In this document: positions 4,119-21,391 of the stretch, piece by piece | How the letters are laid out: each line of letters opens with the position of its first letter | How positions within the stretch are numbered: the first letter of the stretch is position 1 | Source: a virus | Taxonomy: Duplodnaviria > Caudoviricetes | Reading direction: 5' to 3' (one strand) | Length of the DNA stretch: 64,000 nucleotides | Virus record (IMG/VR): IMGVR_UViG_3300044709_000179 | Location: 1 to 64,000 of that record | Translations under genes and position numbers: made by a program | Notes under the pieces: generated by a model | The model's database searches: none | The model's input: the letters and a program-made list of their open reading frames with translations, nothing else | Told to the model about the DNA's origin: nothing

Positions 4119-4120
4119 TC

Positions 4121-4704: not shown

Positions 4705-4937
4705 CGCACGATCAGCCGCTGCGGCGGTAGTACGAGATGGCGCCACGAATCCACCGAGGCCGGGTCGTCGGCGGCCAGAATCCATGCCTCAGGACGGTCG
4801 TAGGCGTCGCGGCGGTCGGTGCGCAGTAGCCAGTCGCCGCGACTGGCCGTAGCGGCGACCATCTCGGTCTCGGAGTCCGCTGTGCCCAGGTAAACGCCGA
4901 TGGTTATGCCGTCGCGGGTTTCGCTGGGGGTGACCAT
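4701..4937 (-). CDS. Small hypothetical protein downstream of repressor
   Basis: Co-oriented with repressor, GC3 bias. Confidence 0.55.
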   Translation of the reverse strand: MVTPSETRDGITIGVYLGTADSETEMVAATASRGDWLLRTDRRDAYDRPEAWILAADDPASVDSWRHLVLPPQRLIVR

Positions 4938-4955
4938 GCGTTCAGCATCGCAGGT

Positions 4956-5579: not shown

Positions 5580-5674
5580 GACGCCATCTTGCCACTTTCT
5601 GCCTGTAGTTGCGTACCCACATCTATGCGGCGTGTCAGTTGCCTATCTGCCGGTTTCTGCCTAGACTTGCACGT
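5580..5674. promoter_or_regulatory. Divergent repressor/Cro promoter-operator region
   Basis: TTTCTGCCT twice, several TTGCC; TAGACT -10 before Cro ATG. Confidence 0.6.
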
Positions 5675-5923
5675 ATGCGCCAGCAACGAATTACCGTGAA
5701 CGGGGGCGCGATTCGCGCTCTACGCGACGCCCTGGGCTGGAACCTCGTGCAGTTCTCCGAGGCGGTCGGCGTCCACAACAGCTACATGAGCCGCGTCGAG
5801 AACGGGCTGCGGCAGCCCTCGTTCGAGGTGCGCCGGCGCATCGCCGCAACTCTCGGCGTGCCAGTCGGCGTCATCACCCGCGAGGTGATCCCGGAGTCGA
5901 CCGAACTGCCGCAAGCAGCCTGA
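5675..5923 (+). CDS. Cro-like XRE HTH regulator
   Basis: IRALRDALGW..QFSEAVGV..SYMSRVENG.RQPS. Confidence 0.85.
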   Translation: MRQQRITVNGGAIRALRDALGWNLVQFSEAVGVHNSYMSRVENGLRQPSFEVRRRIAATLGVPVGVITREVIPESTELPQAA

Positions 5924-6000
5924 CCCCCTGAACGCATCAGGCCCGGCGCGACTGTCCCACCGCCACCGGGCCTCTGATCGGACCAGGAGGTCCAACCGCA

Positions 6001-6081
6001 ATGCTCCATGTCCATGGTAGGGCGAACCGGCGCAAGAACGCGAGATGCTTCGGCATCCTTCCGTCCCGGGGTGCACAGTGA
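6001..6081 (+). CDS. Putative 26-aa leader peptide translationally coupled to replication initiator
   Basis: AGGAGG RBS at 5985; TGA 6079-6081 overlaps GTG 6078. Confidence 0.45.
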   Translation: MLHVHGRANRRKNARCFGILPSRGAQ

Positions 6082-8479: not shown

Positions 8480-8489
8480 AGGACCCGCC

Positions 8490-8861
8490 ATGCCCTCGCT
8501 TTCGCCGCAGGCTCAGGCCATCTATGACCTGATCCACGCCAACCGCACTGGTACCAGCTTCATTGAGGTGACGACCGCGTTTCGACAGGCCGGATACAAC
8601 CCGGACGGCGGCCTCGCCATTGAGCACCCGGCCGTCGAACAGATGCTCATGTGGGGCGGCGTCAGCGACGACCTGTTGGCTGCGGTCAACGAACTGCTTG
8701 GCGCCCGCCTCATTCACTACACGCCGACGTCGGTACTTGTGTACCTCGCCGACGGCGGGATGATGCCCTACCCACTTGCCGAGCGGATGCCAAAGAACCG
8801 CAAGTTCGCGAAGCCGCACTGGATTCCGATGGTCCTCAACGACGGCCCAGCGCCCGCCTAA
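8490..8861 (+). CDS. Hypothetical phage protein
   Basis: GAAGGA RBS, GC3 bias. Confidence 0.65.
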   Translation: MPSLSPQAQAIYDLIHANRTGTSFIEVTTAFRQAGYNPDGGLAIEHPAVEQMLMWGGVSDDLLAAVNELLGARLIHYTPTSVLVYLADGGMMPYPLAERMPKNRKFAKPHWIPMVLNDGPAPA

Positions 8862-8882
8862 CTGCGACCCGAGGGGGAGATT

Positions 8883-9110
8883 ATGCCAATTCCGACGCCG
8901 CTTCCGCCCACCCCACCGTCCGACGCTCTGATCGAAGACCTCGCCCGCGGGCTGCACGCCGACTGGTACCGGGCGACCGTCAACGGCCAGGCCGACGACG
9001 CCGAGGTGAACGCGTTCTGGAACGACCCGCACCCGACGCCATCGTTTCCGGAGTCGGACCTGATGCGGCGCAGCTTCCGGAACAAGGCCCGCGCGCTGCT
9101 GTCCGCCTGA
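8883..9110 (+). CDS. Hypothetical phage protein
   Basis: GGGGAG RBS. Confidence 0.6.
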   Translation: MPIPTPLPPTPPSDALIEDLARGLHADWYRATVNGQADDAEVNAFWNDPHPTPSFPESDLMRRSFRNKARALLSA

Positions 9111-9188
9111 CCACCGCAACCGACCCACGAACCCGCTCTTTAACGCCACGCCAACCAGGCACCGACCACCGAGAGGAACCGACCCGCC

Positions 9189-9328
9189 ATGACCACCGAC
9201 TCCCGCTGCCCCACCTGCGACTCACCCGAGCCGCAACTGCACCCGCGACCCAAGCCGAAGGCGAAGTCACGCACATCTGCCCCGACCCGTTCCACGGCGG
9301 TGGGCCCGACGACCACGAGGAGCACTGA
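9189..9328 (+). pseudogene. Small Zn-finger gene with apparent 1-nt frameshift
   Basis: CPTCDSPEPQLHP in one frame continues as ATQAEGEVTHICPDPFH in another. Confidence 0.45.
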
Positions 9329-9330
9329 CC

Positions 9331-9561
9331 ATGGCCACGTTCAACGGCCCCGCCTACGCCGCCGAAGCCCTGACCCGTCTCAAGCTCGCCGACACGGCAC
9401 ACGATGCCGAGTTCTCCGTGCACCTGCGTGAGACGGCCGCCACCTACGCCACGCTGGCGCTGGTCGCGGCGACCGTCGGACCGACCTACGCCGACCGTGA
9501 CAGCAGCGAAGACGAGCAGTGGGCGAACGCGCTCACCCCGCCCGTGTCGCTTGAAGCCTGA
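9331..9561 (+). CDS. Hypothetical phage protein
   Basis: GAGGAG RBS. Confidence 0.6.
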   Translation: MATFNGPAYAAEALTRLKLADTAHDAEFSVHLRETAATYATLALVAATVGPTYADRDSSEDEQWANALTPPVSLEA

Positions 9562-9582
9562 CCAGAACTGAGAGGAACCCTG

Positions 9583-9858
9583 ATGATCCAGGTCACCGTC
9601 CACGTCGCCCAACCGATCCGCGACGAAGAAGCCGAAACCGGCCACATCGTCATCCGCGAGCCGCTGCCCGAGTTCACCGGCGACGACTGGAAGGAGCAGC
9701 AGGTCGCCGTGCACCGCCGCGACGCGAAACTGATCGCCGACGTGCTGCAAGGCACCCTGCCGGGTGGCACCTTCGACCAGTTGCTGTGTGAACTGCTGAC
9801 CCGTACGGCCAGCGCGTTCCGGGTGCGATACCCGAAGGTTGAGGAGGTGAAGGCGTGA
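9583..9858 (+). CDS. Hypothetical phage protein
   Basis: GAGGA RBS. Confidence 0.6.
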   Translation: MIQVTVHVAQPIRDEEAETGHIVIREPLPEFTGDDWKEQQVAVHRRDAKLIADVLQGTLPGGTFDQLLCELLTRTASAFRVRYPKVEEVKA

Positions 9859-10091
9859 TGAAGGTTCCGACGTGGGATGAGATCGACGGCATGGTCGAAG
9901 GCGACCCGCTCGCCCTGCGCGACCTGGCGGCGAAACTGGTCTGCGAGATCGACCGCCTGCGGGTCGTGTTCGCCGAGGTTGCCGAGTACGCGGAGAAGGT
10001 GGCCGGCCATCCGTGCGGCAACGTGGACCGCGACTACGCGCTGACTGCGATCGCGAACACGGCGCGGCAGGAGGTGACTCGCCATGGCTGA
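9855..10091 (+). CDS. Hypothetical phage protein
   Basis: Coupled ORF. Confidence 0.6.
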   Translation: MMKVPTWDEIDGMVEGDPLALRDLAAKLVCEIDRLRVVFAEVAEYAEKVAGHPCGNVDRDYALTAIANTARQEVTRHG

Positions 10092-10545
10092 CCAGACCCC
10101 CGACCCGACCACCCCAACCATCCGCAACGTCGTCTACGGCGCCCTGTCGTCGGCGCTACTCGACCACGGCATTCACCTGGAGCCGTACATGCGCGGTGGA
10201 ATCCGAGACGAGATCGTGGCAGCGGTCGCCGCGCTGGACGAAGAAGGCCCGCCCGGCTGGGAGGGCTGCGACCGCGCCGAGGCGATCCGCCAGGCCGAGC
10301 ACCACCACGCCGAACTGCTCAAGTGGATGGACGAGCACGACCGTCGCCGCGACGAGCGGGATGCGGCGCTCGCCGACCTGCGGGACCTTGCCGACGGGCA
10401 CGCCGAACTGGTGGTGCACGTCGCACGCCTACGCCGCTTCATGGCCAAGCACGGACTGGAAGACCCGACGTGGGCGAACCTGTCGGAGAGCAACAAGGCC
10501 GTGCTGCGGGCGGCCGACGAGAAGACGCTGGAGGGCGCGGCATGA
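10084..10545 (+). CDS. Coiled-coil hypothetical protein
   Basis: GGAGG RBS, heptad pattern. Confidence 0.6.
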   Translation: MADQTPDPTTPTIRNVVYGALSSALLDHGIHLEPYMRGGIRDEIVAAVAALDEEGPPGWEGCDRAEAIRQAEHHHAELLKWMDEHDRRRDERDAALADLRDLADGHAELVVHVARLRRFMAKHGLEDPTWANLSESNKAVLRAADEKTLEGAA

Positions 10546-10990: not shown

Positions 10991-11508
10991 TGGCCTACCA
11001 GCACAACCCAGAGCGTGACCACCACCGCAAGCCCGGCGCCGCCGTGGCGCTGGCCACCGCGATGATTCCCACCGACCGCGTCCGCTGGGTGTACGCGACC
11101 GATTACTACGACGGTCCGCGCTCCGGTCGGGTGCAGGTCCAGGGTCCGAACGGCTGGCAGGACGCCGAGACGCTGTGGGCCGAACTGATCGAGGAGTGCA
11201 CCTTCGCGGTGTACATCGACAACGAGGACGACGAGCGTGAGTTCGACTACCCGTGCGGGTTCAACCGTCGATTCCGACTGGTCCGCCTCACGCCGGCGGC
11301 GGACGCCGAGGAGGCGCGCCGCCACGGGCTGTTCGAGGAGATGGTGGGCACCCACCATCGGTACGTCTACGACGACGAGGGGAACCGGCGGCGCGTGAGC
11401 CTGTTCGATGCTGCTTCGCACCCGGACTGGCACACGTTCTACGACCTCGCCAAGCGGTGGCCGGAGTGGAAGGCGGAGGGTGAAGTGATCGGGTGGTTCC
11501 AGACCTAG
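10990..11508 (+). CDS. Hypothetical protein (YYDGP.SG motif)
   Basis: 172 aa, coupled. Confidence 0.65.
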   Translation: MAYQHNPERDHHRKPGAAVALATAMIPTDRVRWVYATDYYDGPRSGRVQVQGPNGWQDAETLWAELIEECTFAVYIDNEDDEREFDYPCGFNRRFRLVRLTPAADAEEARRHGLFEEMVGTHHRYVYDDEGNRRRVSLFDAASHPDWHTFYDLAKRWPEWKAEGEVIGWFQT

Positions 11509-11753
11509 CGGTCGAGGCGCTCCAGGATCTGCGCGATGCCCTGCTCCAGGCTGGCCATGCGCTGGTCAAGGCCGTCGATGCGACCGTTGACCGCGGCGAA
11601 CCCGCTCTGGACCTCCTCGCGCAGTTCGTGCACCTCGGACTGGACCAGCGACAGGCCGAACGCCTGGGCACGCAGGCCAGCGCCGATCTCGGCGTGGCGG
11701 AGCTCTTGGACTTCCGCTTCGACCTTGCTGAGGCGCTCTTCGGGGGTGGCCAC
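11505..11753 (-). CDS. Small coiled-coil protein (leaderless moron)
   Basis: TATCGT-6nt-GTG; heptads. Confidence 0.65.
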   Translation of the reverse strand: MATPEERLSKVEAEVQELRHAEIGAGLRAQAFGLSLVQSEVHELREEVQSGFAAVNGRIDGLDQRMASLEQGIAQILERLDR

Positions 11754-11789
11754 GGTTCGACGATACCGGATCCGGTCGCCGTGGCCGAG

Positions 11790-12011
11790 TCACCCAACGC
11801 GCTTGAACAGGTACACGCCCCACGGCTGCCCGTTCTCGATCGCGACGGTGAAGAACGCGAGATCCCACCCGACGGCCGCGATCCGGTTGATAGCCACGTT
11901 CGGGTCGACGTTGGCCTCGTACAGCAGCGTGACGTGGAAGAGGCGATCGCCGCGCTGCCAAGCCTGCTGGGCGGCCTTCGCCTCGGGGGTGGTGCGCTTG
12001 AACCACGCCAT
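11790..12011 (-). CDS. Small hypothetical protein (DUF4177-like, leaderless moron)
   Basis: TACGAT-6nt-ATG; IN.IAA.GWDL...YLFKR. Confidence 0.6.
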   Translation of the reverse strand: MAWFKRTTPEAKAAQQAWQRGDRLFHVTLLYEANVDPNVAINRIAAVGWDLAFFTVAIENGQPWGVYLFKRVG

Positions 12012-12187
12012 GCGGTGATCGTAGCGGCGTCGGGTGCGCTAGGCAGCCAGCGTGGCCCGCAGCTCTTCGCCGAACTCCTCGACTGCGGCCTCATTGGGAT
12101 AGCGCTCGCGCAGTTCGCTGATGAACTCACGGGCGTTCATCGCCAGCGACGGCAGCGACCGGCGCCCCAGGGTGAGCGCGCGACGCG

Positions 12188-13027
12188 TTATGCGGCCAGT
12201 TGCTGGCCCCGCGCCCGCTGAAACAGGCAGCACTCCATGTTGCCGCACCAGTGGCCCGCGAGTTCGCCGAGCTGCTTGGCGTGGATCTCCAGTTCCGCCT
12301 TCATCTCTGCCAACTGGTGGTGCACCAGCGCCATTTGATCAGGGGAGACGTCGGGGTTCGGTGGCCGTCCGGGTTCGTTGGGCGAATCGTTAAGCGTCCT
12401 TACGACCGAGCCCTTGCCCTGAAAACTGGTGACCAAGCCTTGGCTGCGCAGTTCGGCAACGACGCGGCGGGCCATGGCGACGTCGACCTGATATTGCTTC
12501 TGCATCTCGGTCAGGGACGGCAGCCACGTGCCAGCGGCCAGTTCGCCGGAGTAGATCTGCGCGGCAATGGTGGCCGCGATTGCTCGAAACGTTGGTAGTG
12601 GCTTGCTGTAGGCCAGGACTTTCGGAATGGGGGTCGGCTCGGGATCTTCAATGAGCCCGCCAAAGAGGTCCACCTGGCCGTAGGGGTCCTCGCCACGACA
12701 AACCAGTTCGACTAAGGCGACCGTGGTGTCGAAGTCTGCGTCGTAGAAGTACTCACGTCGAGCGCGCTCGCCTCGCGAGCTTCGCACCATGAAGTCGATG
12801 ATGGTTGTCTCGTTGCGCGCGAAGCCCAGGTGCGCATCCGATATCCATGCCGCAACCAGCTCGGCGCGAAAGGCAGAGGCATCGCTGATGTGCTGCGCGA
12901 GCCGACTGGCGGGATCGACGGTCTTCCCGACCTTGACCACCTTGCAGTCGAATTCGATGACGTAGAGGTAGCCGAATCCATCAGTAACGGCTGGGCGCGA
13001 GGTCCAGACAGTGGGGTCGATGGTCAC
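12188..13027 (-). CDS. T5orf172/GIY-YIG-like domain fused to GntR wHTH
   Basis: YLYVI..VKVGKT.DP..RL..H..EYF; C-term I.SGEL.AG..LPS..E...Y.V...ARR...L...GLV...GKG. Confidence 0.75.
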   Translation of the reverse strand: MTIDPTVWTSRPAVTDGFGYLYVIEFDCKVVKVGKTVDPASRLAQHISDASAFRAELVAAWISDAHLGFARNETTIIDFMVRSSRGERARREYFYDADFDTTVALVELVCRGEDPYGQVDLFGGLIEDPEPTPIPKVLAYSKPLPTFRAIAATIAAQIYSGELAAGTWLPSLTEMQKQYQVDVAMARRVVAELRSQGLVTSFQGKGSVVRTLNDSPNEPGRPPNPDVSPDQMALVHHQLAEMKAELEIHAKQLGELAGHWCGNMECCLFQRARGQQLAA

Positions 13028-13062
13028 GGTACCAATGGTACCGCATGTACGCTTGGTACATG
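13027..13062. promoter_or_regulatory. Divergent promoter with two palindromes / four GTAC at 9-nt spacing
   Basis: CGGTACCA-A-TGGTACCG and CATGTAC-n5-GTACATG. Confidence 0.7.
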
Positions 13063-13275
13063 GAGCGTGAGATGCGGGTGCGTGAGGTTCGAGACCAACT
13101 CGGTCGCAGGGTGGACGCCGCCCACTACGGCGGTGAAGCCACCGTCATTACGTCAAGCGGCGAGAAGCGTGCCGTGCTTGTGCCATACGAGTGGTATCAG
13201 AGAGTTTGCGTCCAGCAAGCCGCAGGCAAGACGTCACCTCGCCGCCGGGTATCGGCTACGCCTCCCACGCCTTAA
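13060..13275 (+). CDS. Phd/YefM-family antitoxin (orphan)
   Basis: VREVRDQLG..VD.A...GE.TVIT..G..RAVLVP. Confidence 0.8.
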   Translation: MEREMRVREVRDQLGRRVDAAHYGGEATVITSSGEKRAVLVPYEWYQRVCVQQAAGKTSPRRRVSATPPTP

Positions 13276-14089
13276 CCGTCTTGGCCAGAAACGCTCGCGC
13301 ATCCTCACCAGTCAGCGCCTGCTCCCACATCGCGTCCATGACCTCCACATAAAGGTCGGGCGCCTCTCGTGAGTCCTCACCGTCGAAGGTTTCCACTACG
13401 ACGAGGTCGTCGTACATCTGGAAGCCGTGCTGCGGCACCCGACGGTTGCCACCCCGCATGGGCAGCAATCCCAGGCGAACGTTTGGCGCATCCAGCCACG
13501 TGGCGAGGAAGTGCAGTTGCGGGACCATGACGCGCGCCGGCACCCAGTCCCACAGTAGGGCGGGCTCGCCGATAAGGATCTCGAACCGCTTGGACTGGTC
13601 GTAGAGCAGGTGTTGACGCTTCATACGTGCGGCCACGGCTTCGTCGATGTCCTTCGGCGGCCGGTGCAACTCCACCATCTCGGCAAAGACGGCCCGGGCG
13701 TAGTCGCGGGTCTGGACGAGGCCGGGGATCCAGACGGTGTCGAAGTAGCGGATCACCTGCGAGTCTTCGACCATCTGGTTGTGGATGCGCTGCACCTCGG
13801 CTTGCCCGCGCGCCATCGTGTCCTTGAAGGTGCGTTCGTGCGCTACACCCGTGGCGCGTAGCTCCAGCAACTCCGGGGCAGCACCCGCCGCGCCAGTTGC
13901 CTGAGCCCACGCCTCAATGTCGGACTGCGACGGGGTGATGATGCCTTGCCGAATTCGGGACACCTTTGACGGTGCCCAGCCGAGTTGTTCGGCGAGGTCT
14001 TTACCGGTGATGTCGGCGGCGTCTTGCAGTTCGCGCAGGCGCTCGGCGAGGCCGCCGGGCACGATCAGCCAAGGCTTCGGTTCGTTCAT
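13256..14089 (-). CDS. XRE HTH + DUF5753 regulator (WhiJ/Scr1-like)
   Basis: LAEQLGW.PSKVSRI, IPGLVQT.DYARAV, ARM.RQ..L, I.E.AL. Confidence 0.85.
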   Translation of the reverse strand: MNEPKPWLIVPGGLAERLRELQDAADITGKDLAEQLGWAPSKVSRIRQGIITPSQSDIEAWAQATGAAGAAPELLELRATGVAHERTFKDTMARGQAEVQRIHNQMVEDSQVIRYFDTVWIPGLVQTRDYARAVFAEMVELHRPPKDIDEAVAARMKRQHLLYDQSKRFEILIGEPALLWDWVPARVMVPQLHFLATWLDAPNVRLGLLPMRGGNRRVPQHGFQMYDDLVVVETFDGEDSREAPDLYVEVMDAMWEQALTGEDARAFLAKTVKAWEA

Positions 14090-14655
14090 GGCGTGGACTC
14101 CCGGGTTGTGGCGGTGATGACGCCTTCGTGGTCGAGGGCGCCAAGTCGGACCGCCAGGTCCCGCCATGCGCATGCCTGCTTCACTCGGTTGGGGTCGGTG
14201 ACGAGTTCGTTGCGAACGCGCCGCCCTTCGCCGTCGAAGGACATGACGATCAGGTCGCGTTCATCGAGAAGCCAGAGGTCGGTGGCGCCGAGGAAAGCTA
14301 GCAGGCCAGCCTCGTCGGCCTGCGTCCGGGTCAGGTAGTAGATCTGCTCACCGGCCGCCGCGTTCCATGTGCCGATCCATCGCTCCCACCGCTGACTGTC
14401 GGTCGGCGGGTCGTCGTGGATGCGGACGCGGGTCATGCGCCGGCCGCGGTCGGTGAGGTCGCGGATGCGCTCGAACCAGAGTTTCAGGCTGGGCAGTTCG
14501 GTGGGGTCGCGCGGGTCGCCCGCGGCGAAGCTCACCACCGCCTCGTGCTCTTCCGGCTCGTGGTAGATCCGCTGCGCTTCGAAGCGGAACGCCGTGCGCT
14601 GGAAGTTGAAGAGGCGGCGGTAGAACTCGGCTTCGTCGATGAGCTGGCCGGGCAT
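14086..14655 (-). CDS. DUF6879-family protein
   Basis: F.RTAFRFE...Y, RVR..D.PPTD.QRW, N.AAGE.I, D.WL.D. Confidence 0.8.
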   Translation of the reverse strand: MPGQLIDEAEFYRRLFNFQRTAFRFEAQRIYHEPEEHEAVVSFAAGDPRDPTELPSLKLWFERIRDLTDRGRRMTRVRIHDDPPTDSQRWERWIGTWNAAAGEQIYYLTRTQADEAGLLAFLGATDLWLLDERDLIVMSFDGEGRRVRNELVTDPNRVKQACAWRDLAVRLGALDHEGVITATTRESTP

Positions 14656-14657
14656 GG

Positions 14658-14861
14658 TCAGGGTGCCTGCCGGAGCCGGTCGAGCACGTTGGCGGGGACG
14701 AAGACGCCATCCTCGTCGTCGGCGAGTTGCCGGAGGTGCGACCGCTCTTCGTCGGTGAGCTTGATGCCCTGGACGACGTAGCCGCCTTCGGTGGCGTAGA
14801 GGGCGGGGCAACCGCCGCCACCGCTGTCCCGGTCCTTCCAGAGGAATGTCAGGTTCCGCAT
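14658..14861 (-). CDS. Small partner protein of DUF6879/DUF5753 module
   Basis: L.FLWKD..S..GGCPALYAT...YVVQG...E..V.VP. Confidence 0.75.
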   Translation of the reverse strand: MRNLTFLWKDRDSGGGGCPALYATEGGYVVQGIKLTDEERSHLRQLADDEDGVFVPANVLDRLRQAP

Positions 14862-14883
14862 CGTTCGCCCCTTCTGTCGGGCT

Positions 14884-15039
14884 CCAGGTTCCTGACCTGA
14901 TGGTCCCACTGCGAGCAAGATCTATGCAATTGCCCTCGGCATGCCGCACTAGCGGTCATCCGAGGGCAATCAGCGGAACCTGGCTCCTCTCACGGTAGAG
15001 CAATCTTGCACAATTGCTTGAGTTGATCGAGCAATTGTG
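14884..15039. promoter_or_regulatory. Divergent control region with three inverted repeats
   Basis: CCAGGTTCC/GGAACCTGG, ATTGCCCTCGG/CCGAGGGCAAT, CACAATTGCT/AGCAATTGTG. Confidence 0.6.
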
Positions 15040-15089
15040 AGACATTGCATTGCGGGCGCAACGACCCGCCGACCGACGAGGGAGCGAAG

Positions 15090-15398
15090 GTGAGCGCATC
15101 AGCAGCCACAACCGCGGCCATCGAGCGGCTATCTGACGCCGATCGGGCCGCGTACGAGGCGTTCTGCGCTATCACCTGCCCCATCGAGCAGGCGCGGGCG
15201 ATCACCGCCTGGGGGCGACCCCGGGGCACACTCCGCTCGCCGTTCCGCGAGCTGCGCCTTGCCGCGCTCGCCAAGGTCCACGCCAGCGCCCAACTGAAGC
15301 GCGGCAAGGCTGCGGCCCTCGCCCTGCGCATCGGCTTCTCGCCGACCCGGTTCAGCCGTCTCACCCGGCACGTCAGCATCGAAGGGACGCCGTCATGA
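15090..15398 (+). CDS. Putative HTH DNA-binding protein
   Basis: AALALRIGFSPTRFSRL at C-terminus. Confidence 0.55.
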   Translation: MSASAATTAAIERLSDADRAAYEAFCAITCPIEQARAITAWGRPRGTLRSPFRELRLAALAKVHASAQLKRGKAAALALRIGFSPTRFSRLTRHVSIEGTPS

Positions 15399-15823
15399 CC
15401 ACCACGACCGTCGAGCACGCCGCCCGCGACCACGCCAAGCAGATCCGCGACCCGCAGCACCGCGAGGCCTTGGCGAAGCTTCTCGAAGACCTCGCCTACA
15501 TCTACGACGAGATCGGCGGCGGCCTGCACGTCGCCGCCCCCGACGGCCTGAAGGTCAACCCGCTGGTCGACATGAACCTGCGCTTCGGCTCGGACGTCGC
15601 CACCGAACTGGCCCGCCTGATCCGCGACGGCGAGCAGTGGATGACCGAGGCCGCCGCGCTGCGCCGCGAAGAGGACCGGATCAACCGGCTGGGCCAGCGT
15701 GAGCAGGTCATCTGCGTGACCCCGGAGGACTGGCGGCTGCGGCGCGCCGAGGGCTTCGCGGCCGGCGTTGACGCGCTCGCCCAGGAACTCGCCGCGTCCG
15801 ACTCGGATCTGGTGGACGCGTGA
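15395..15823 (+). CDS. Hypothetical protein
   Basis: Coupled ORF. Confidence 0.65.
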   Translation: MTTTTVEHAARDHAKQIRDPQHREALAKLLEDLAYIYDEIGGGLHVAAPDGLKVNPLVDMNLRFGSDVATELARLIRDGEQWMTEAAALRREEDRINRLGQREQVICVTPEDWRLRRAEGFAAGVDALAQELAASDSDLVDA

Positions 15824-16032
15824 TGACCGCCTACATCGCCCGCTACATCACCGTCGACCACTCCGGTGCGGTGATCGCCACTGGCGTGATCGACCTGAAC
15901 GGTCCCGGCTTCGACCTTTCCGATGCGATGGGTGCCAACCACGCCTACCGGACGGCCGCCGAGGTCGTCGGCAGCACGCCGCCAGTGCCGAACGGCACGG
16001 TCATCGTCACCTCGCTGGTGGAGGCCGGCTGA
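15820..16032 (+). CDS. Hypothetical protein
   Basis: Coupled ORF. Confidence 0.6.
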   Translation: MMTAYIARYITVDHSGAVIATGVIDLNGPGFDLSDAMGANHAYRTAAEVVGSTPPVPNGTVIVTSLVEAG

Positions 16033-17243
16033 TGCTCCCCACCGCCGTTGAGAACCCCCGCCCGCCGGTGACTCCCGCCGACGGGCGGGCCAACGGCGTA
16101 CACCCCCTCCAGGCGACCTTCATCGCGGAGCCCGCAGACAGGCATCTCCGGCTCCGCCCCATCGCCGGGCCGACCGACACTGCCGCCCCCCGTCAGCCGT
16201 CGGTCGGCCCGGCCCGCCTCGCCGAAGCCGACCAGGAGCCGACCACTCCGACCGGTCGGTATGCCGACCACGTCGACCGGTGGACCGCGACCCTCCGACT
16301 GGTCGCCCCCCTGCTCCTCGTTAACGCGCTTGCCGTCTACGGGCAGATCGCATACGCCTACGACCACATCGCGCCGACCACTTGGACCACCGCGTCCCGG
16401 GTGGTTCTCGCTGTCGGCGCTGCGGCGGCGGTCGAGTCGATCGCGCTGTACGTCGGATGGCACGCCCACGACGCACTCATCCTGAAGTCGTACACGACCG
16501 CCCGGCACCTCCGCCGCGCCTCGTACGTCATCGCGGCGGTCGTCGGCTCCGTCAACTACACCCACTTCGCCGATGGCTTCCGGCCCACCGGTGCGGCGAT
16601 CATGTTCGGGCTGTTGTCGCTGGTCAGCCCCTGGTTGTGGGGCCTGCACACCCGTCGCGTGCAGCGGGTCCAGCTCATCCGGGAAGACCTTGTCGACGAC
16701 GCCGGGGTCGAGTTTTCGATCACCCGTCGGCGCAACTTCCCGTGGCGGTCCTGGCAGGCGCGCCGCTGGTCGATCGACCACAACATCCGCGACCCGAAGG
16801 TGGCGTGGCGGGAGTACAACGCCGACCGGATGCGTCGCCGCGCGGAGTTGACGCGCGCAGCCGACCACCGCCCGCCCGCCCCGACCGCCCCCCGGTCGGC
16901 GCGGAAGCCGACCACCAAGAAGAAGACCACCCGGCGGGCACCGACCACCACCCCGACCGCCCCGGTTCCGACCACCGACCACCTGAAGCCGACCGGTCCG
17001 ACCACCCCCCCGGTCGAGAAGCCGACCACCACCCCGACCGACGGCAGGAAGTGGGCACCGGTCGCCCTCCGCGACGCGGCACTACTGCGGTCGAAGCACG
17101 GCACGGTCGGTGCCGACCACCTGCCCGGTCGGAACGAGCTGATGCGCCTCCACGACTGGAACGCGGGCAAGGCCTCGGACGCCCGGACTGCCTACCTCGC
17201 GGGCGCGGACCTCGCCCATACCCCGAATGGAGACCTCTCGTGA
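16032..17243 (+). CDS. DUF2637/Spd-like multi-TM protein with Pro/Thr-rich linker and C-terminal HTH
   Basis: 4 TM helices (..VN.LAVYGQ..ESIA..VNY.H..S..SP.LW), repeat linker; architecture typical of actinomycete plasmid spread proteins. Confidence 0.65.
   Translation: MLPTAVENPRPPVTPADGRANGVHPLQATFIAEPADRHLRLRPIAGPTDTAAPRQPSVGPARLAEADQEPTTPTGRYADHVDRWTATLRLVAPLLLVNALAVYGQIAYAYDHIAPTTWTTASRVVLAVGAAAAVESIALYVGWHAHDALILKSYTTARHLRRASYVIAAVVGSVNYTHFADGFRPTGAAIMFGLLSLVSPWLWGLHTRRVQRVQLIREDLVDDAGVEFSITRRRNFPWRSWQARRWSIDHNIRDPKVAWREYNADRMRRRAELTRAADHRPPAPTAPRSARKPTTKKKTTRRAPTTTPTAPVPTTDHLKPTGPTTPPVEKPTTTPTDGRKWAPVALRDAALLRSKHGTVGADHLPGRNELMRLHDWNAGKASDARTAYLAGADLAHTPNGDLS
16861..17120 (+). repeat. 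Cluster of CCGACCAC octamers (candidate clt/TraB recognition locus)
   Basis: 8 exact copies plus CCGACCG variants, in different reading frames. Confidence 0.55.
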
Positions 17244-17563
17244 CCACTCGCGCCACTCGTAAGCGCCACTCCGGCATGGCGCGGCGCACCGCGCTGGCCC
17301 TGGTCGGCGTCATGGCGCTGACCGGCTGCGCCCCGTCCCCGAAGCCCGACTTCGTCACCACCGGTCCGATCGTCGAGAAGAACCACTACGACCCGAAGGT
17401 CGACCCGAGCTTCTCGGCGGACCGGTGGGAGTTCTGCTTCGGTCGGCAGGCGCAGTCGGCCTGCGTCCCGGTCAGCCACGTCGACTACGACTCGTTCAAC
17501 GTCGGCGACACCGTCCATGTCGAGCAGGTCACGGGCGAGCTGGCCGAGGTGAGCAAGCCGTGA
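17240..17563 (+). CDS. Putative lipoprotein
   Basis: Signal with lipobox LTGC. Confidence 0.65.
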   Translation: MTTRATRKRHSGMARRTALALVGVMALTGCAPSPKPDFVTTGPIVEKNHYDPKVDPSFSADRWEFCFGRQAQSACVPVSHVDYDSFNVGDTVHVEQVTGELAEVSKP

Positions 17564-17850
17564 CGATCACTCGCCCAGACCGCATTCTCGGCCCGAGCGC
17601 CTCGACCGTCGAGGGCTGCCGCGCCAACGCCCGCTCCGCCGCGTTCGCCGGTGCGGCGGCTGCCCTGCTGACGGCGGTGCTCGCCAACACCTGGTGGCTG
17701 TTCCTGCTTGGCGCGCTGGTCACCGCCGGCTCGACCTTCGACGCCGTCCGCTACGCCCGCAAGGCCCGACGCCTCGCGAAGCACAACCCCCCGATCTCGG
17801 ACACCCACTCCCGCGGTGTTCCGACCACTTCCGAGAAGGAGCAGCAGTGA
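17560..17850 (+). CDS. 2-TM membrane protein
   Basis: Hydrophobic hairpin. Confidence 0.6.
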   Translation: MTITRPDRILGPSASTVEGCRANARSAAFAGAAAALLTAVLANTWWLFLLGALVTAGSTFDAVRYARKARRLAKHNPPISDTHSRGVPTTSEKEQQ

Positions 17851-18125
17851 ACACCAACGACATCACGACCAAGCTCAGCGACCTGGTCACAGGCTCGGCC
17901 GGCGGCTACCCGCTCCTCACCATGGCCGGCGTTGCCCTCGTGTGGGCGATCGCCATGGCGCTGACGCCCGGCAAACTTCGGATTCTGCCGGTTCTGTACG
18001 GCGTCCTGCTGGTCGGCATCTTCTACACCCACCACCTGGAGTTGCTGCCGTGGCCGCTCGCGGGTGGCGTGGCATGGGCACTGCTCATGTACGTGAACCC
18101 GTTCAAGAGCGCCAAGAAGGCGTGA
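17847..18125 (+). CDS. 3-TM membrane protein
   Basis: Hydrophobic segments. Confidence 0.6.
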   Translation: MNTNDITTKLSDLVTGSAGGYPLLTMAGVALVWAIAMALTPGKLRILPVLYGVLLVGIFYTHHLELLPWPLAGGVAWALLMYVNPFKSAKKA

Positions 18126-18415
18126 CGACTGTGGCCGACGGTGAGCTGCAGCAGCCCCGCTTCTACCGCGTGCGCTGCTTCGACCGGGAGCGGGAGGTGT
18201 TCGTCGAGCGTCGGGTACCGGCCGCGCTCGACCTCACCCCCGGCCCGGCCGTGCTCGCCGCCGAAGCCAAACTGCACGCCCTGCTCCAGGTCATGGCCTA
18301 CGCCGACGGTGCTCGTGGTGCACGCGTACGGGACTACCACCTGACGGTGGGGGACTGGCCGGAAGGGGTCGTGCACTTCCACTGGCCGGCCACGTCGTGG
18401 CCCGACCGCACCTGA
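18122..18415 (+). CDS. Hypothetical protein
   Basis: Coupled ORF. Confidence 0.55.
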   Translation: MTTVADGELQQPRFYRVRCFDREREVFVERRVPAALDLTPGPAVLAAEAKLHALLQVMAYADGARGARVRDYHLTVGDWPEGVVHFHWPATSWPDRT

Positions 18416-18458
18416 CCCGACACCCACCGCCACCTGCGAAAACGAAAGGACAACCCCC

Positions 18459-18977
18459 GTGAACCACACCATGTCCCCGACCGGGGTGGCGGTGCTGCTA
18501 CTGCTGGCACTGGTCGTCGACTACATGTCGGTCGGCCCCAACTCGCTGCGCGACCGGCTCGCGTTCCTGCTGGCCCTGCCCGCCGTACGGGAGGGCTTCA
18601 ACGGTTCCCCGCTCGACAACTGGACGGTCGGCGCCCTGTCCGGTGCCATCGACACGCTGAAGGGCATGTCGGGCGGTGCCTACATCGCCGGCGCGGTCAC
18701 TTCCGTGGTGGTGGGAGCCCTGGTGGGAGTGCTGTTCATCTACACGGTGGGGGCGCTGTTGCCGGAGAAGTTCGCGACCAAGTTGGGCCCGTTCGCGAAG
18801 ATTTCGTTCCCGCAGACGGGCACCTACCGCATCAACTTCAAGCTCTGGACCTGCGCGGTCATGCTCGGCCTGCTCGCCGACCTGCCTTCTGGCCTGGTCG
18901 GCAGTGTGGTCCGGGGCTCGATCACGCTCGTCACCGGCGTCACCTCCCTGCTGCCGTCCCTCCTGTTTGGAGCCTGA
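18459..18977 (+). CDS. Multi-TM membrane protein (transfer/spread-associated)
   Basis: AAAGGA RBS; several hydrophobic helices. Confidence 0.65.
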   Translation: MNHTMSPTGVAVLLLLALVVDYMSVGPNSLRDRLAFLLALPAVREGFNGSPLDNWTVGALSGAIDTLKGMSGGAYIAGAVTSVVVGALVGVLFIYTVGALLPEKFATKLGPFAKISFPQTGTYRINFKLWTCAVMLGLLADLPSGLVGSVVRGSITLVTGVTSLLPSLLFGA

Positions 18978-18978
18978 C

Positions 18979-19467
18979 ATGACCGAGTTTCTGCTGCTCG
19001 CGGCCCCTGCGCCCGCCGCTGAGAACGGGTGGGGCGGGGTACTGGCCCTACTGCTGACGGCGGGCGTGTTCTGGGGGCTGGTGACGGTGCATCGGCGCTG
19101 GCGGGAGGAGAAAGCCAACGGTGGACCGGTGGATCACTCCCCTGCCCTGCCGTCGGCTGAGCCTTCAAATGGGCTCAACCCGCAGGTCAGTGGGCCTGTT
19201 GATCCTTTTGAGCCTGCCGGTGAGCCCGTGTCGGCAGAAGTGGGTCGCAGCCGGGACTGCGAGGTCGAGTTGGTGCCGTCGCGGACGCCGCCGGGCACCC
19301 CGACCGCCCAGCCGGCCGAGCTGGACCGGTTCGTGGCCGCGCGGCTGCGTACCCAGCGGCCCACCGAAATCATCAGCGAGGCCCACCGTCGGTTCGGCCG
19401 TTCGCGGGCGACGGTGAACCGGGCCATCAAGCGCGTCCGCGCGGGTGCAGGTCGGGAGGTGGCGTGA
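18979..19467 (+). CDS. Membrane-anchored protein with C-terminal HTH (Spd/TraA-like)
   Basis: N-terminal TM, linker, RFGRSRATVNRAIKR. Confidence 0.6.
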   Translation: MTEFLLLAAPAPAAENGWGGVLALLLTAGVFWGLVTVHRRWREEKANGGPVDHSPALPSAEPSNGLNPQVSGPVDPFEPAGEPVSAEVGRSRDCEVELVPSRTPPGTPTAQPAELDRFVAARLRTQRPTEIISEAHRRFGRSRATVNRAIKRVRAGAGREVA

Positions 19468-19667
19468 TGCTGGCGTGGCTGTACGAGAAGGTGACCGGCG
19501 AGTCGTTCTGGACGGGCCGGTCTGCGGTTGACGAGTTCGGCCCGAGCAGGGCAACCCGTCACGCCGACGTGCTGCGCGGCCTCACCGACTGGGAGGTCGC
19601 CATGTACGGTGACCGGCTCGTCGCGGCGGCGGAGGCGAAGCAGGCCCCGGTGGGTGCGTCGCGATGA
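19464..19667 (+). CDS. Hypothetical protein
   Basis: Coupled ORF. Confidence 0.5.
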   Translation: MMLAWLYEKVTGESFWTGRSAVDEFGPSRATRHADVLRGLTDWEVAMYGDRLVAAAEAKQAPVGASR

Positions 19668-21391
19668 CCCGCCGGCGGCCCAAGCCTCTGCGTCCTGCCG
19701 CAGTGTTCGCGCTATGGGTGGGTCTGCTGCTGCTCGCGGCGGCCACCAACTGGGCGGCGCCGGTCGTCGCGTTCGTCGTCGCCTACGCCTGCTGGGCCAA
19801 CTTTCGCCGCCGCGTCAACGCGACCGTCGTGCACTTCGGTCAGCGTGTGCTGGAGTCGCCACGGGCGGCCCGGACCGTGTACCTGGTGACCGGGATTGAC
19901 CGTCGGCCTGAGCGTCCGGCGCTGCCCGCGACGGCGCGGCCGGCAGAAATCGTCAAAATCCGTCCAACTGCCGAGCGGGTCGCCGCGGCGCCGGTTCACG
20001 TACCGCAGGCAGTCGACATGGCCACCGCCCGGACCGCGGCCAAGTTGCGGGCCATGTTCGCCGAGCGCGGCGTGGACGCGACGGTGGTCGGGTTCACGCA
20101 GGGCCCGTCGGTGACCCAGTTCGCGGTAGAGAAAGGCGTCGGCACGACGGTCGACGCGATCCTGAAACTGTCGAAGGAAATCGCCTACGCGGTCGGGACC
20201 GCCGACGTGCGCATGGTGTCACCGATCCCTGGCCGTTCGGCGATCGGCATCGAACTGCCCAACGAGGCGCGCCGCACCGTTCGGCTCGCCGACGTGCTGG
20301 CCTCGCCGGAGGCGCGAGGCAACGACGCACCACTCCTGGTGGGGCTTGGCGAGGACATGGAGGGCCGCCACGTGGTGGCCGACCTCGCGAAGGGACCGCA
20401 CACGCTGGTCGGCGGTGTCACCGGTTCGGGCAAGTCGGTGTTTCTCAACGTGGCGCTGGTGTCGATCCTGCGGCGCACCACCCCCGATCAGGTGCGACTT
20501 CTGCTGGTCGACCCGAAGCGGGTCGAACTGGCCGCCTACAAGGACATCCCCCATTTGGTCGTGCCGATCGTCAACGATCCGTCGAGGGCGGTGGACGCGT
20601 TCGCCTGGACGGTCCGGGAAATGGAGTCCCGCTACGACCGGTTCGCCGAGGTCGGCGCACGCAACTTGGACGAGTACAACAAGTGGGCCCGCAAGAACGG
20701 TGAGACGCCGATGCCCAGCCTGCTCGTCGTGGTCGACGAGTTGGCGACTCTGATGATGGTGGCGAAGCAGCGCCGCGACGCCGCGAAGCGCGCCGCCACC
20801 GACGAGCTCCCCGACGACCCCGAGCAGGTGACCGCCCGCCTCGGCGCCGAGGGGCGTGCCGCTGGCATTCACCTGCTGCTGGCCACGCAGCGGCCCGACG
20901 CAACCGTCGTCACGGGCCTGATCAAGGCGAACGTGCCGGCACGGCTGGCGTTCGCCGTCTCTGATGCCGTCAACTCGCGGATCATCCTCGACCAGAACGG
21001 CGCTGAGGCACTGTACGGCGCGGGCGACGCACTGTTTCTGCCGCAGGGGGCCTCGACGCCGATCCGGCTGCAGGGTTCCTGGGTCGACGAGCAGGAGATC
21101 GCTGAGGCGGTTCGTCATGCGAAGGCATGGGGTCCGCCCCAGTTCCGCGACGACGTGCTCACCCCCGCCCCCGCACCGCGCGCGACACCGCAGGTCACGG
21201 TTTCGGCCGCCGACCTGCAGCAGGCTCGTGCGCTGGTGGTCGAGAAGCGGTCGGCGTCGGTGTCGATGCTGCAGCGCCAGATGCAGATCGGCTTTCCGAA
21301 GGCGGCGCGGTTGTTGGACGCGCTGGAGGCGGCCGGCGCCGTCGGCCCGGCCCGCGGTTCGAAGCCGCGTGAGGTCCTCGTCAAGGAGTAG
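19664..21391 (+). CDS. ftsK: FtsK/SpoIIIE DNA translocase (TraB-like) with gamma domain
   Basis: 2 TM, alpha domain, GVTGSGKS, VDPKRVEL, VVDEL, LATQRP, ASVSMLQR..IGF.KAARL. Confidence 0.93.
   Translation: MTRRRPKPLRPAAVFALWVGLLLLAAATNWAAPVVAFVVAYACWANFRRRVNATVVHFGQRVLESPRAARTVYLVTGIDRRPERPALPATARPAEIVKIRPTAERVAAAPVHVPQAVDMATARTAAKLRAMFAERGVDATVVGFTQGPSVTQFAVEKGVGTTVDAILKLSKEIAYAVGTADVRMVSPIPGRSAIGIELPNEARRTVRLADVLASPEARGNDAPLLVGLGEDMEGRHVVADLAKGPHTLVGGVTGSGKSVFLNVALVSILRRTTPDQVRLLLVDPKRVELAAYKDIPHLVVPIVNDPSRAVDAFAWTVREMESRYDRFAEVGARNLDEYNKWARKNGETPMPSLLVVVDELATLMMVAKQRRDAAKRAATDELPDDPEQVTARLGAEGRAAGIHLLLATQRPDATVVTGLIKANVPARLAFAVSDAVNSRIILDQNGAEALYGAGDALFLPQGASTPIRLQGSWVDEQEIAEAVRHAKAWGPPQFRDDVLTPAPAPRATPQVTVSAADLQQARALVVEKRSASVSMLQRQMQIGFPKAARLLDALEAAGAVGPARGSKPREVLVKE

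What the first reader, a model, noticed from the sequence alone, without database searches (positions are those of the whole stretch)
15090..21391. Tailed phage carrying an AICE/plasmid-like conjugal transfer and spread module
Seen: DUF2637-like membrane protein, lipoprotein, four further membrane proteins and a complete FtsK/SpoIIIE motor in one operon, in an element with intact virion genes. Established: mycelial actinomycete conjugation needs only a TraB FtsK-like translocase plus Spd membrane proteins. Inference: a phage able to move dsDNA between hyphae or across cross-walls without virions, or to segregate an extrachromosomal prophage.
Basis: partly seen in the sequence, partly recalled or inferred. 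Interest (0 to 1): 0.75.

Follow-up and report, generated by a model that had tools for sequence, protein, structure and literature searches.

The report
Phage membrane operon with captured FtsK pump
A 118-kb integrating tailed phage of filamentous soil actinomycetes carries one tightly packed operon of membrane proteins ending in a complete FtsK DNA pump, which may move phage DNA between hyphal cells without virus particles; the idea is untested and this kind of module is already known in other actinomycete phages.

Summary
Window 15090-21391 is one + strand, translationally coupled operon. It encodes a DUF2637/SpdB-like 4-TM protein, a lipoprotein, four more membrane proteins and a 575-aa FtsK with intact alpha, beta and gamma domains. 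The record is a 118-kb phage with real virion genes and a serine integrase.

- **For it:** the layout resembles tra/spd operons. Related phages carry TraB-like ATPases in the same slot, beside homologues of the DUF2637-like gene. A GntR-like regulator lies nearby. No att-like repeats bound the block.
- **Against it:** the motor is a true FtsK, nearest to Micromonosporaceae chromosomal FtsK, with its 4-TM N-terminus replaced by a 2-TM hairpin. It is not TraB. The best-conserved partners (m08-m09-m10) have no plasmid homologue. They mostly sit in ordinary prophages, beside tail and lysis genes, without any translocase.

My best reading (about 0.4) is a phage-specified membrane dsDNA pump acting across hyphal septa.

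This is a new variant of a known kind. Plasmid-phages pZL12 and pFP4 conjugate, SpdB2 homologues in phiC31 and VWB have been noted, and this scan holds 118 notes whose text matches such phage modules, on other DNA.

The parts
12188..13027 (-). GntR-like winged-helix regulator. It is the last gene of the minus-strand regulator island that diverges from the operon.
   Evidence: Pfam GntR, 42 bits, residues 149-209. Similar wHTH genes lie upstream of the m09 cassette in 12 of 22 Micromonosporaceae genome loci. They also lie upstream of the TM-FtsK operons in viral loci L027 and L053.
13256..14173 (-). XRE-type regulator with a DUF5753 domain. The start codon is uncertain.
   Evidence: Pfam DUF5753, 108.9 bits. 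It is 57% identical to the neighbour of the cassette in L042, and homologues lie beside the FtsK operons in L033 and L118.
14086..14655 (-). DUF6879 protein.
   Evidence: Pfam DUF6879, 133.8 bits. 55% identical to its counterpart in L042.
14658..14861 (-). 67-aa partner of the DUF6879 gene.
   Evidence: GC3 gene call. 87% identical to its counterpart in L042.
14862..15089 (.). Divergent control region with operator-like palindromes.
   Evidence: 22-nt inverted arms at 15000-15021 and 15027-15048. Perfect 11-nt arms at 14929-14939 and 14960-14970.
15090..15398 (+). m01, a small soluble protein and the first gene of the operon.
   Evidence: Frame plot. GGGAG ribosome site before the GTG at 15090.
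15395..15823 (+). m02, a 142-aa soluble protein.
   Evidence: GC3 0.94. 32% identical to the gene upstream of the m04 homologue in L002.
15820..16032 (+). m03, a 70-aa protein.
   Evidence: Frame plot and overlapping stop/start codons.
16032..17243 (+). m04, a DUF2637/SpdB-like membrane protein. It has four TM helices, a Pro/Thr linker and a C-terminal 3-helix domain.
   Evidence: AF2 model. 161 homologues, mostly Micromonosporaceae, several with C-terminal HTH domains. DUF2637 hits in the L042 and L040 counterparts. Atlas nearest clusters are DUF2637 at 0.92 and SpdB at 0.88.
16861..17120 (+). Array of eight co-oriented CCGACCAC octamers inside the m04 linker. It is only a candidate cis site.
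   Evidence: 26 forward and 9 reverse copies in the genome, 11 of them in m04, read in two frames. Relatives have other clustered octamers in the same linker whether or not they have a translocase.
17276..17563 (+). m05, a lipoprotein.
   Evidence: Signal peptide with an L-T-G-C lipobox.
17560..17850 (+). m06, a single-TM protein.
   Evidence: TM segment at residues 32-55. Weak Rv2743c and holin-like Pfam hits below their cut-offs.
17847..18125 (+). m07, a protein with 2-3 TM segments.
   Evidence: Hydropathy analysis.
18131..18415 (+). m08, a soluble protein and first member of the conserved m08-m09-m10 trio.
   Evidence: 30-46% identical to genes placed just before m09 in L004, L011, L022 and L042.
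18459..18977 (+). m09, a 4-TM protein and the best-conserved gene of the module.
   Evidence: 52-65% identity to ten viral-locus homologues, with 71% mean column identity. Present in 22 genome loci, all Micromonosporaceae. No Pfam, PHROG, PADLOC or NCBIfam hit.
18979..19467 (+). m10, with an N-terminal TM helix and a weak C-terminal homeodomain-like HTH.
   Evidence: Translation. HTH_23, E = 7.8e-4, below the cut-off. Homologues directly follow m09 in other loci.
19464..19667 (+). m11, a 67-aa soluble protein.
   Evidence: Frame plot and overlapping stop/start codons on both sides.
19664..21391 (+). m12, a short-form FtsK: a 2-TM hairpin, a linker and the alpha, beta and gamma domains.
   Evidence: Pfam, NCBIfam, alignment with six other short forms that share the same N-terminus, and trees.

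Best explanation
The operon encodes a phage-specified membrane machine for moving double-stranded DNA.

Shown:
- The motor is a complete FtsK hexamer-type pump (alpha, beta and gamma domains).
- Its cell-division-targeting 4-TM N-terminus is replaced by a 2-TM hairpin that it shares with a small family of short FtsKs carried on mobile elements.

Inferred:
- This new N-terminus docks the pump onto the phage's own membrane proteins. These are the DUF2637/SpdB-like m04 (a 4-TM bundle with a C-terminal helical domain that may bind DNA), the 4-TM protein m09, the membrane-anchored HTH protein m10, the lipoprotein m05 and the small TM proteins.
- The complex sits at hyphal cross-walls or sporulation septa.
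- The gamma domain has a changed recognition helix. It loads the pump on phage DNA, possibly at the CCGACCAC array.
- The DNA is pumped into neighbouring compartments or spores. That would give spread or inheritance without virions, as TraB plus Spd proteins do for Streptomyces plasmids.
- Expression is probably held down by the regulators encoded divergently upstream.
For: - The operon has translational coupling, as spd operons do (PMC4447253).
- FtsK is intact and membrane-anchored.
- It lacks FtsK_4TM, which the chromosomal forms have.
- The cassette m08-m09-m10 followed by a short FtsK recurs in viral loci L022, L040 and L042. m09 followed by an FtsK also occurs in viral locus L028 and in four Micromonosporaceae genome loci.
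- Close m04 homologues are followed by other FtsK-superfamily ATPases in L002, L005, L006, L013 and L016. Two ATPases of this group, in L005 and L029, have plasmid_TraB as their only NCBIfam hit. The L016 ATPase hits Pfam FtsK_SpoIIIE at 30 bits.
- The L002, L005, L013 and L029 ATPases are 23-31% identical to the conjugative-transfer ATPase of Micromonospora plasmid pVMKU. That plasmid has the same gene order and also an FtsK.
- The record holding L002 also shares a 42%-identical capsid with this phage.
- The gamma recognition helix reads QRQMQIGFPKAARLLD, against a nearly invariant host QRKLRVGFAKAGRLMD.
- Precedents exist: plasmid-phages pZL12 and pFP4 transfer conjugally (PMC3583192, PMC4170104).
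Against: - No experiment bears on this operon.
- The motor is of the FtsK lineage, not TraB.
- Of 17 viral loci with a close m04 homologue, only 5 have a detectable translocase.
- The m08-m10 trio occurs without a translocase beside tail and lysis genes in ordinary-sized prophages.
- m09 has no plasmid homologue.
- The SpdB profile does not match m04.
- The octamer array does not track the presence of a translocase in relatives, and it may simply reflect a repeated Pro-Thr peptide.
- The phage integrates, so it does not need transfer in order to persist.
Confidence: 0.4

Rival explanations
1. Host take-over or developmental manipulation. The phage FtsK acts on the host chromosome, or competes with host FtsK, during septation and sporulation. 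This could keep lysogen spores intact or reshape infected hyphae. The membrane proteins would retarget it or act separately.
For: - The motor groups with Micromonosporaceae chromosomal FtsK and keeps all three domains.
- PHROGs files such proteins under host takeover.
- Published notes list ftsK among actinophage genes that may manipulate development (PMC10117723, PMC13587820).
- Regulators of a type common in actinomycetes (XRE-DUF5753) lie next to the module here and in L042, L033 and L118.
Against: - The divisome-targeting 4-TM domain is gone.
- The gamma recognition helix differs from the nearly invariant host form.
- The tight, recurring linkage to phage-specific membrane genes is not explained.
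Confidence: 0.25
2. Superinfection exclusion or defence. The prophage-expressed membrane cassette (m04, m08-m10) blocks DNA entry by other phages or plasmids, and FtsK is an optional add-on that expels or traps incoming DNA.
For: - The cassette sits at the typical accessory-gene position, between tail or lysis genes and the regulatory region, in many prophages, mostly without a translocase.
- It is very strongly conserved.
- The FtsK motor resembles FtsK-like domains of the defence proteins SspH and mad8.
Against: - No module protein other than the FtsK domain matches PADLOC.
- The FtsK hits are similarity at the domain level only.
- No known exclusion system has this make-up.
Confidence: 0.15
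3. Membrane anchoring of phage DNA. The membrane-bound HTH proteins (m04 C-terminus, m10) organise replication at the membrane, in the manner of phi29 p16.7. FtsK would separate or resolve replicated phage genomes, for example by activating Xer recombination through its gamma domain.
For: - Two membrane proteins carry C-terminal helical or HTH domains.
- Relatives of m04 carry HTH_23, HTH_11 or HTH_24 domains.
- The phage has its own replication genes: two DnaB-like helicases, a beta clamp and an exonuclease.
- The phi29 comparison is from my own knowledge.
Against: - No dif-like site or Xer gene was sought or found.
- The cassette also occurs in small prophages, whose replication genes were not examined.
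- The HTH assignment in m10 is below the Pfam cut-off.
Confidence: 0.15

Closest known systems
TraB plus Spd proteins of Streptomyces conjugative plasmids (pSVH1, pIJ101) and AICEs
   Same: - A membrane-associated FtsK-superfamily dsDNA pump with a C-terminal winged helix.
- It is encoded with several small membrane proteins in a translationally coupled operon.
- One partner is a ~400-aa protein with four TM helices and extra N- and C-terminal domains (SpdB2 is 409 aa and m04 is 403 aa).
- A GntR-type regulator lies nearby (PMC4447253).
   Different: - The motor is a true FtsK with alpha and gamma domains. It is 27% identical to pIJ101 Tra over 220 residues, against 50-55% to cellular FtsK.
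- There is no profile similarity to pIJ101 SpdB.
- m08-m10 have no plasmid homologues (one search tested m09).
- The element is a 118-kb phage, not a 9-24-kb element.
Streptomyces plasmid-phages pZL12 (phage ZL12) and pFP4
   Same: [quoted passage not shown]
   Different: - pZL12 is a ParAB plasmid, and Pfam FtsK_SpoIIIE finds nothing in it.
- The present phage has a serine integrase, no ParAB and an FtsK-lineage motor.
- No homology to the pZL12 tra genes was found.
Chromosomal FtsK of Actinobacteria (Micromonosporaceae)
   Same: 50-55% identity over the alpha, beta and gamma domains. All motifs are kept. They are adjacent in both trees.
   Different: - The 4-TM N-terminal domain and long linker are replaced by a 2-TM hairpin and a short conserved segment shared with six other 550-600-aa forms.
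- The branch is long.
- The gamma recognition helix is altered.
FtsK-like genes already noted in cultured actinophages, and SpdB2 homologues in phiC31 and VWB
   Same: FtsK/SpoIIIE-like genes are reported in Streptomyces phages (PMC11536984, PMC13587820). [quoted passage not shown]
   Different: - No GenBank phage has an m04 homologue.
- No phiC31 protein matches the m04 or SpdB profiles.
- The linked membrane cassette is not described in those papers.
Micromonospora maris plasmid pVMKU transfer-like cluster
   Same: A DUF2637-like gene (17.4 bits), small TM proteins, a 430-aa protein, a conjugative-transfer ATPase and then an FtsK, all on one strand. Its FtsK falls in the same clade as the window's.
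   Different: - pVMKU keeps a full-length 4-TM FtsK of 822 aa and has a separate T4CP/TraB-like ATPase.
- The window phage has only the short FtsK, and it has the m08-m10 trio instead.

Membership tests
FtsK DNA translocase (alpha-beta-gamma) | Alpha domain, RecA-like beta motor with Walker A and B motifs, and gamma winged helix | tested here: met
   PF17854 69.7 bits, PF01580 172.4 bits and PF09397 77.6 bits. NCBIfam FtsK 343 bits, though under the full-length cut-off. GSGKS, DE and TQRP are invariant in the alignment.
FtsK DNA translocase (alpha-beta-gamma) | N-terminal 4-TM divisome-targeting domain (PF13491) | tested here: not met
   No PF13491 hit. The precomputed domains of the chromosomal forms include it, and those of the window protein do not. 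There are only two TM segments, at residues 8-41.
FtsK DNA translocase (alpha-beta-gamma) | Phylogenetic placement among FtsK proteins | tested here: met
   It groups with the short-form FtsKs (SH-aLRT 96; 98/99 in the second tree), next to Micromonosporaceae chromosomal FtsK. The root is unstable because of long branches.
TraB/Tra of Streptomyces plasmids and AICEs | Sequence membership (NCBIfam plasmid_TraB, NF041214) | tested here: not met
   32.5 bits against a cut-off of 800. 27% identity to pIJ101 Tra over 220 residues.
TraB/Tra of Streptomyces plasmids and AICEs | C-terminal winged helix that reads 8-bp direct repeats in a clt site | tested here: inconclusive
   A gamma winged helix is present and has diverged. 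A CCGACCAC array exists, but it does not co-vary with translocases in relatives.
TraB/Tra of Streptomyces plasmids and AICEs | Required for contact-dependent dsDNA transfer | not testable with these tools
   This needs mating and pock assays.
Spd spread proteins (SpdB/SpdB2) | Homology to a characterised Spd protein | tested here: inconclusive
   hhalign of the m04 family against the pIJ101 SpdB family gives probability 0.1. BLASTP gives E = 0.6-0.8. The Atlas feature search lists SpdB clusters at 0.88, which is only a lead.
Spd spread proteins (SpdB/SpdB2) | Integral membrane protein with four TM helices plus N- and C-terminal domains, in a translationally coupled operon with the translocase | tested here: met
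   AF2 model of m04, overlapping stop/start codons, and the SpdB2 description in PMC4447253.
DUF2637 (PF10935) | HMM score above the gathering cut-off of 22.8 bits | tested here: inconclusive
   m04 and 17 homologues give no listed hit. The L042 protein in the same slot scores 35.5 bits and the L040 homologue scores 22.2 bits. m04 aligns with a DUF2637 protein of 34.5 bits on a Streptomyces plasmid.
AICE (integrase + RepSA/RepAM/Prim-Pol + FtsK/SpoIIIE Tra; PMC3218068) | Integrase and an FtsK/SpoIIIE-domain protein | tested here: met
   Serine integrase at genome 99662-101131. FtsK.
AICE (integrase + RepSA/RepAM/Prim-Pol + FtsK/SpoIIIE Tra; PMC3218068) | A discrete small element with an AICE-type replication protein and no virion genes | tested here: not met
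   The record is 118 kb with capsid and tail genes. Its replication genes are of the DnaB-helicase type. No att-like repeats flank the block. The RepSA, RepAM and Prim-Pol models themselves were not run.
Plasmid-phage (pZL12/pFP4 type) | Plasmid maintenance genes (ParA/ParB) together with virion genes | tested here: not met
   No ParB_N or AAA_31 hit in the 118 kb, with positive controls. An integrase is present.

The most novel reading that the evidence does not exclude
A chromosomally integrating tailed phage has captured a host-type FtsK, swapped its division-site anchor for one that docks on phage membrane proteins, and changed its DNA-reading helix. As a result it pumps phage dsDNA across hyphal cross-walls or into spores. 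In related phages a TraB-like ATPase fills the same slot. This would mean phages of mycelial actinomycetes have repeatedly assembled a virion-independent route of spread from different motors.
Probability: 0.3. Interest if true: 0.75.

Novelty: new variant of a known kind. Interest (0 to 1): 0.45.

Why it matters
If the operon does move phage DNA between hyphal compartments, then temperate phages of filamentous actinomycetes have a second, capsid-free way of spreading. That would change how plaque growth, lysogen spread and gene flow in soil mycelia are understood.

The case is useful because the motor is a well-understood FtsK. Its ATPase, its gamma-domain DNA recognition and its localisation can be tested directly. 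The short N-terminus and the highly conserved m09 and m10 proteins are concrete candidates for the docking interface.

The case also shows different FtsK-superfamily motors (FtsK, TraB-like, T4CP-like) placed beside the same DUF2637-like membrane gene. The idea itself is not new. It has experimental precedents in pZL12 and pFP4, and this scan has noted it many times.

Tried and rejected
- **Separate inserted element:** rejected. No flanking direct repeats, even base composition, and synteny with L042 on both sides of the block.
- **Extrachromosomal prophage partition:** unlikely. The phage has a serine integrase and no ParA or ParB.
- **Close relatives among cultured phages:** none. Megablast found nothing, and m04 has no tblastn hit among 50,697 phage records.
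- **Homology of m04 to pIJ101 SpdB:** hhalign found nothing. HMMs of both families found nothing among the 13 phiC31 proteins tested.
- **Structure of m04:** Foldseek against the PDB gave no match at E <= 0.001. VIA-align wide gave only generic helical bundles, Z <= 7.5. The C-terminal domain was not folded on its own.
- **m09:** the Atlas gave only unnamed actinobacterial clusters.
- **PADLOC:** only FtsK-domain hits.
- **KOPS-type GGGNAGGG motifs:** too few copies and no skew.
- **Octamer array as a translocase loading site:** not supported by comparison with relatives.
- **pZL12:** Pfam FtsK_SpoIIIE found no match in it.
- **The ~766-aa ATPase of L002:** no PDB sequence match and no Pfam hit.

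Full report
**What the record is.** The window is the first 64 kb of a 118,071-bp IMG/VR virus record, rated 97% complete. GC content is even at 64-72%. PHROGs identifies a siphovirus-type virion module on the minus strand from 39 to 64 kb: major capsid 61292-62437, major tail 51791-52309, tape measure 46374-50909, Dit 45503-46372 and minor tail proteins. A protein at genome 67165-68628 weakly matches a large terminase. Beyond the window lie a large serine integrase (genome 99662-101131), a second DnaB helicase, a DNA polymerase III beta clamp, a DnaQ-like exonuclease and a PDDEXK nuclease. No ParA or ParB model matches, and the controls were positive. It is therefore a temperate, integrating tailed phage. 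Its host is probably a member of the Micromonosporaceae. The homologues of m04 that carry names are nearly all from that family, and all 22 genome loci holding the m09 family are from it.

**The observation.** A third-position GC frame plot and translations give twelve + strand genes from 15090 to 21391. Eight junctions have overlapping or abutting stop and start codons, and the only gaps are 32, 5 and 43 nt.
- m04 (403 aa) has four long TM helices (model residues 73-217). These are followed by two confident helices, a disordered Pro/Thr linker and a C-terminal three-helix domain with pLDDT of about 95.
- m05 has a lipoprotein signal ending in L-T-G-C.
- m06, m07, m09 and m10 have 1, 2-3, 4 and 1 TM segments.
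- m12 is a 575-aa FtsK with alpha, beta and gamma domains, conserved catalytic motifs and two N-terminal TM segments.

The only soft point is the label 'DUF2637-like'. The Pfam model misses m04 and its close homologues. It does hit the protein in the same slot of the syntenic locus L042 (35.5 bits, with a C-terminal HTH_23), and it nearly hits the L040 homologue (22.2 bits against a cut-off of 22.8). m04 also aligns at 30% identity with a DUF2637 protein of a Streptomyces linear plasmid. Its nearest named Atlas clusters are DUF2637 (0.92), with SpdB clusters at 0.88.

**The motor is FtsK, not TraB.**
- NCBIfam gives 343 bits for FtsK and 32.5 bits for plasmid_TraB, whose cut-off is 800.
- Identity is 50-55% to actinobacterial chromosomal and plasmid FtsK over residues ~125-574, and 27% to pIJ101 Tra over 220 residues.
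- pIJ101 Tra itself scores only 38.8 bits for FtsK_SpoIIIE and has no alpha or gamma hit.
- The nearest full-length relatives are six proteins of 549-603 aa. They share the window protein's short N-terminus, which is a TM hairpin and a small conserved segment, and they lack FtsK_4TM.
- In a mixture-model tree rooted on low-GC FtsKs, the window protein lies in a clade with these short forms, the FtsKs of L040 and L042, and the FtsK of Micromonospora plasmid pVMKU (SH-aLRT 96). That clade nests among Micromonosporaceae chromosomal FtsKs (99).
- A second tree under LG+G4 keeps the same grouping as a split (98/99). However, the long branches of the window and L040 proteins are drawn towards the outgroup, so the direction 'captured from the host' is likely but not secure.
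- The gamma recognition helix reads QRQMQIGFPKAARLLD. Chromosomal forms across Actinobacteria are almost invariant at QRKLRVGFAKAGRLMD. This hints at a changed DNA specificity, but that is inference only.

**The membrane genes form a phage cassette.** m09 is the best-conserved gene, at 52-65% identity and 71% mean column identity.
- The trio m08-m09-m10 recurs in viral loci. In L004, L007, L008, L010, L011 and L012 m09 follows an m04 homologue and no translocase was detected. In L022, L040 and L042 the cassette is followed by a short FtsK, and in L028 m09 is followed by an FtsK.
- Among the 22 Micromonosporaceae genome loci with m09, an FtsK follows in four, and a GntR-like gene lies upstream on the other strand in twelve.
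- The neighbours of the cassette in L004, L007, L011, L042 and L022 are tape-measure, minor-tail and endolysin genes. The cassette therefore lives in real prophages, at the usual accessory-gene position.
- L042 is syntenic with the window on both sides: the DUF5753, DUF6879 and 67-aa genes upstream (57, 55 and 87% identity), and two small genes downstream.
- No att-like repeats flank the window's block.
- m09 has no hit in 72,556 plasmids, and m04 has none in 50,697 GenBank phages.

**Other motors in the same slot.** Of 17 viral loci with a close m04 homologue, five have a large P-loop ATPase a few genes downstream: L002, L005, L006, L013 and L016.
- The L016 ATPase hits FtsK_SpoIIIE at 30 bits.
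- The L005 and L029 ATPases have plasmid_TraB as their only NCBIfam hit (35.7 and 26.5 bits, far under the cut-off).
- The L002, L005, L013 and L029 ATPases are 23-31% identical to the protein annotated as a conjugative DNA-transfer family protein on pVMKU.
- pVMKU has the same order of genes: a weak DUF2637-like gene, small TM proteins, a 430-aa protein, the ATPase and then a full-length FtsK.
- L002 belongs to a record that also shares a 42%-identical capsid with this phage, and it has the closest m04 homologue (61%).
- L029, which was found through its FtsK and shows no m04 homologue at the thresholds used, has both a TraB-like ATPase and an FtsK.
- Large high-GC viral records of 100-120 kb, two of them with terminal repeats, commonly have multi-TM genes directly upstream of a membrane-anchored FtsK. 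GntR or DUF5753 regulators lie opposite in L027, L033 and L053.

The association between a DUF2637-like membrane gene and an FtsK-superfamily pump is therefore recurrent but not obligatory.

**Mechanism.** The best-supported reading is a phage-built membrane complex for pumping dsDNA. The motor is retargeted by its new N-terminus to the phage's own membrane proteins, and it acts across hyphal septa. This parallels the way TraB and Spd proteins work (PMC4447253). I give it about 0.4. The rivals are:
- action on the host chromosome or on host development (0.25);
- exclusion or defence by the membrane cassette (0.15);
- membrane anchoring and resolution of replicating phage DNA (0.15).

The CCGACCAC array in the m04 linker has 8 copies in 260 bp, read in two frames. 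It is a possible loading site. However, relatives have other clustered octamers in the same linker whether or not they encode a translocase, so I do not rely on it. The intergenic region 14862-15089 holds strong palindromes and is the likely control point.

**Comparison with what is known.**
- Conjugation by tailed plasmid-phages is established for pZL12 and pFP4 (PMC3583192, PMC4170104).
- SpdB2 homologues in phiC31 and VWB were suggested to help phage DNA spread (PMC4447253).
- FtsK-like genes in Streptomyces phages have been noted (PMC11536984, PMC13587820, PMC10117723).
- This scan has 118 earlier notes whose text matches the search words for phage, FtsK/TraB, Spd, DUF2637 and conjugation; the eight shown describe TraB/DUF2637 modules in phages on other DNA.

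What is particular here is an FtsK-lineage motor with a swapped anchor, an integrating phage rather than a plasmid-phage, and a Micromonosporaceae-specific partner cassette with no plasmid counterpart. I rate it a new variant of a known kind, of moderate interest.

**Limits.** The pSVH1 SpdB2 sequence and the Pfam models PF27079 and PF27080 were not available. Gene calls are my own, made by the GC3 method. The tree root is unstable.

Noticed in passing
window 11505-14861 (minus strand): A minus-strand island holds a GntR-like wHTH gene, an XRE-DUF5753 gene, a DUF6879 gene and a 67-aa gene. The last three travel with the membrane/FtsK cassette in L042, L033 and L118, in differing arrangements. 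They may be its dedicated regulators or a toxin-antitoxin-like set.
   Followed up: partly
window 14929-15048: There are strong palindromes in the divergent intergenic region: perfect 11-nt arms, and 22-nt arms built on GCAATTG-like words. They look like operators.
   Followed up: partly
L020 (pVMKU) 2177-10497, L002 10040-15936, L005 9785-16923, L013 9797-16756, L029 2799-10422: A second conserved cluster is shared by a Micromonospora plasmid and several 70-120-kb phage records. In pVMKU, L002, L005 and L013 it starts with a DUF2637-like gene (none was detected in L029). It continues with a 3-4-TM protein, a ~420-460-aa protein with an N-terminal TM, and a TraB/T4CP-like ATPase. pVMKU and L029 also have an FtsK.
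   Followed up: partly
L122 and L123 (Verrucosispora sp. TAA-831 chromosome start and 37-kb plasmid p1): The m09 and m10 matches at the chromosome end and on the 37-kb 'plasmid' give identical scores. The plasmid may be an excised or separately assembled prophage.
   Followed up: no
genome 99662-101131, 74512-75864, 86889-88046, 90066-90980 (beyond the window): Large serine integrase, a second DnaB helicase with its N-terminal domain, a DNA polymerase III beta clamp and a DnaQ-like exonuclease. The phage carries much of a replisome.
   Followed up: partly
window 58050-58350: A dense run of CGCCGCCG-type words (9 in 300 bp) lies in or near the start of the 716-aa tail-associated gene 58235-60385.
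   Followed up: no
L022 6061-6789: In the slot where other loci have m04, L022 has a 242-aa 2-TM protein whose N-terminus weakly resembles an FtsK gamma domain (20 bits, below the cut-off).
   Followed up: no
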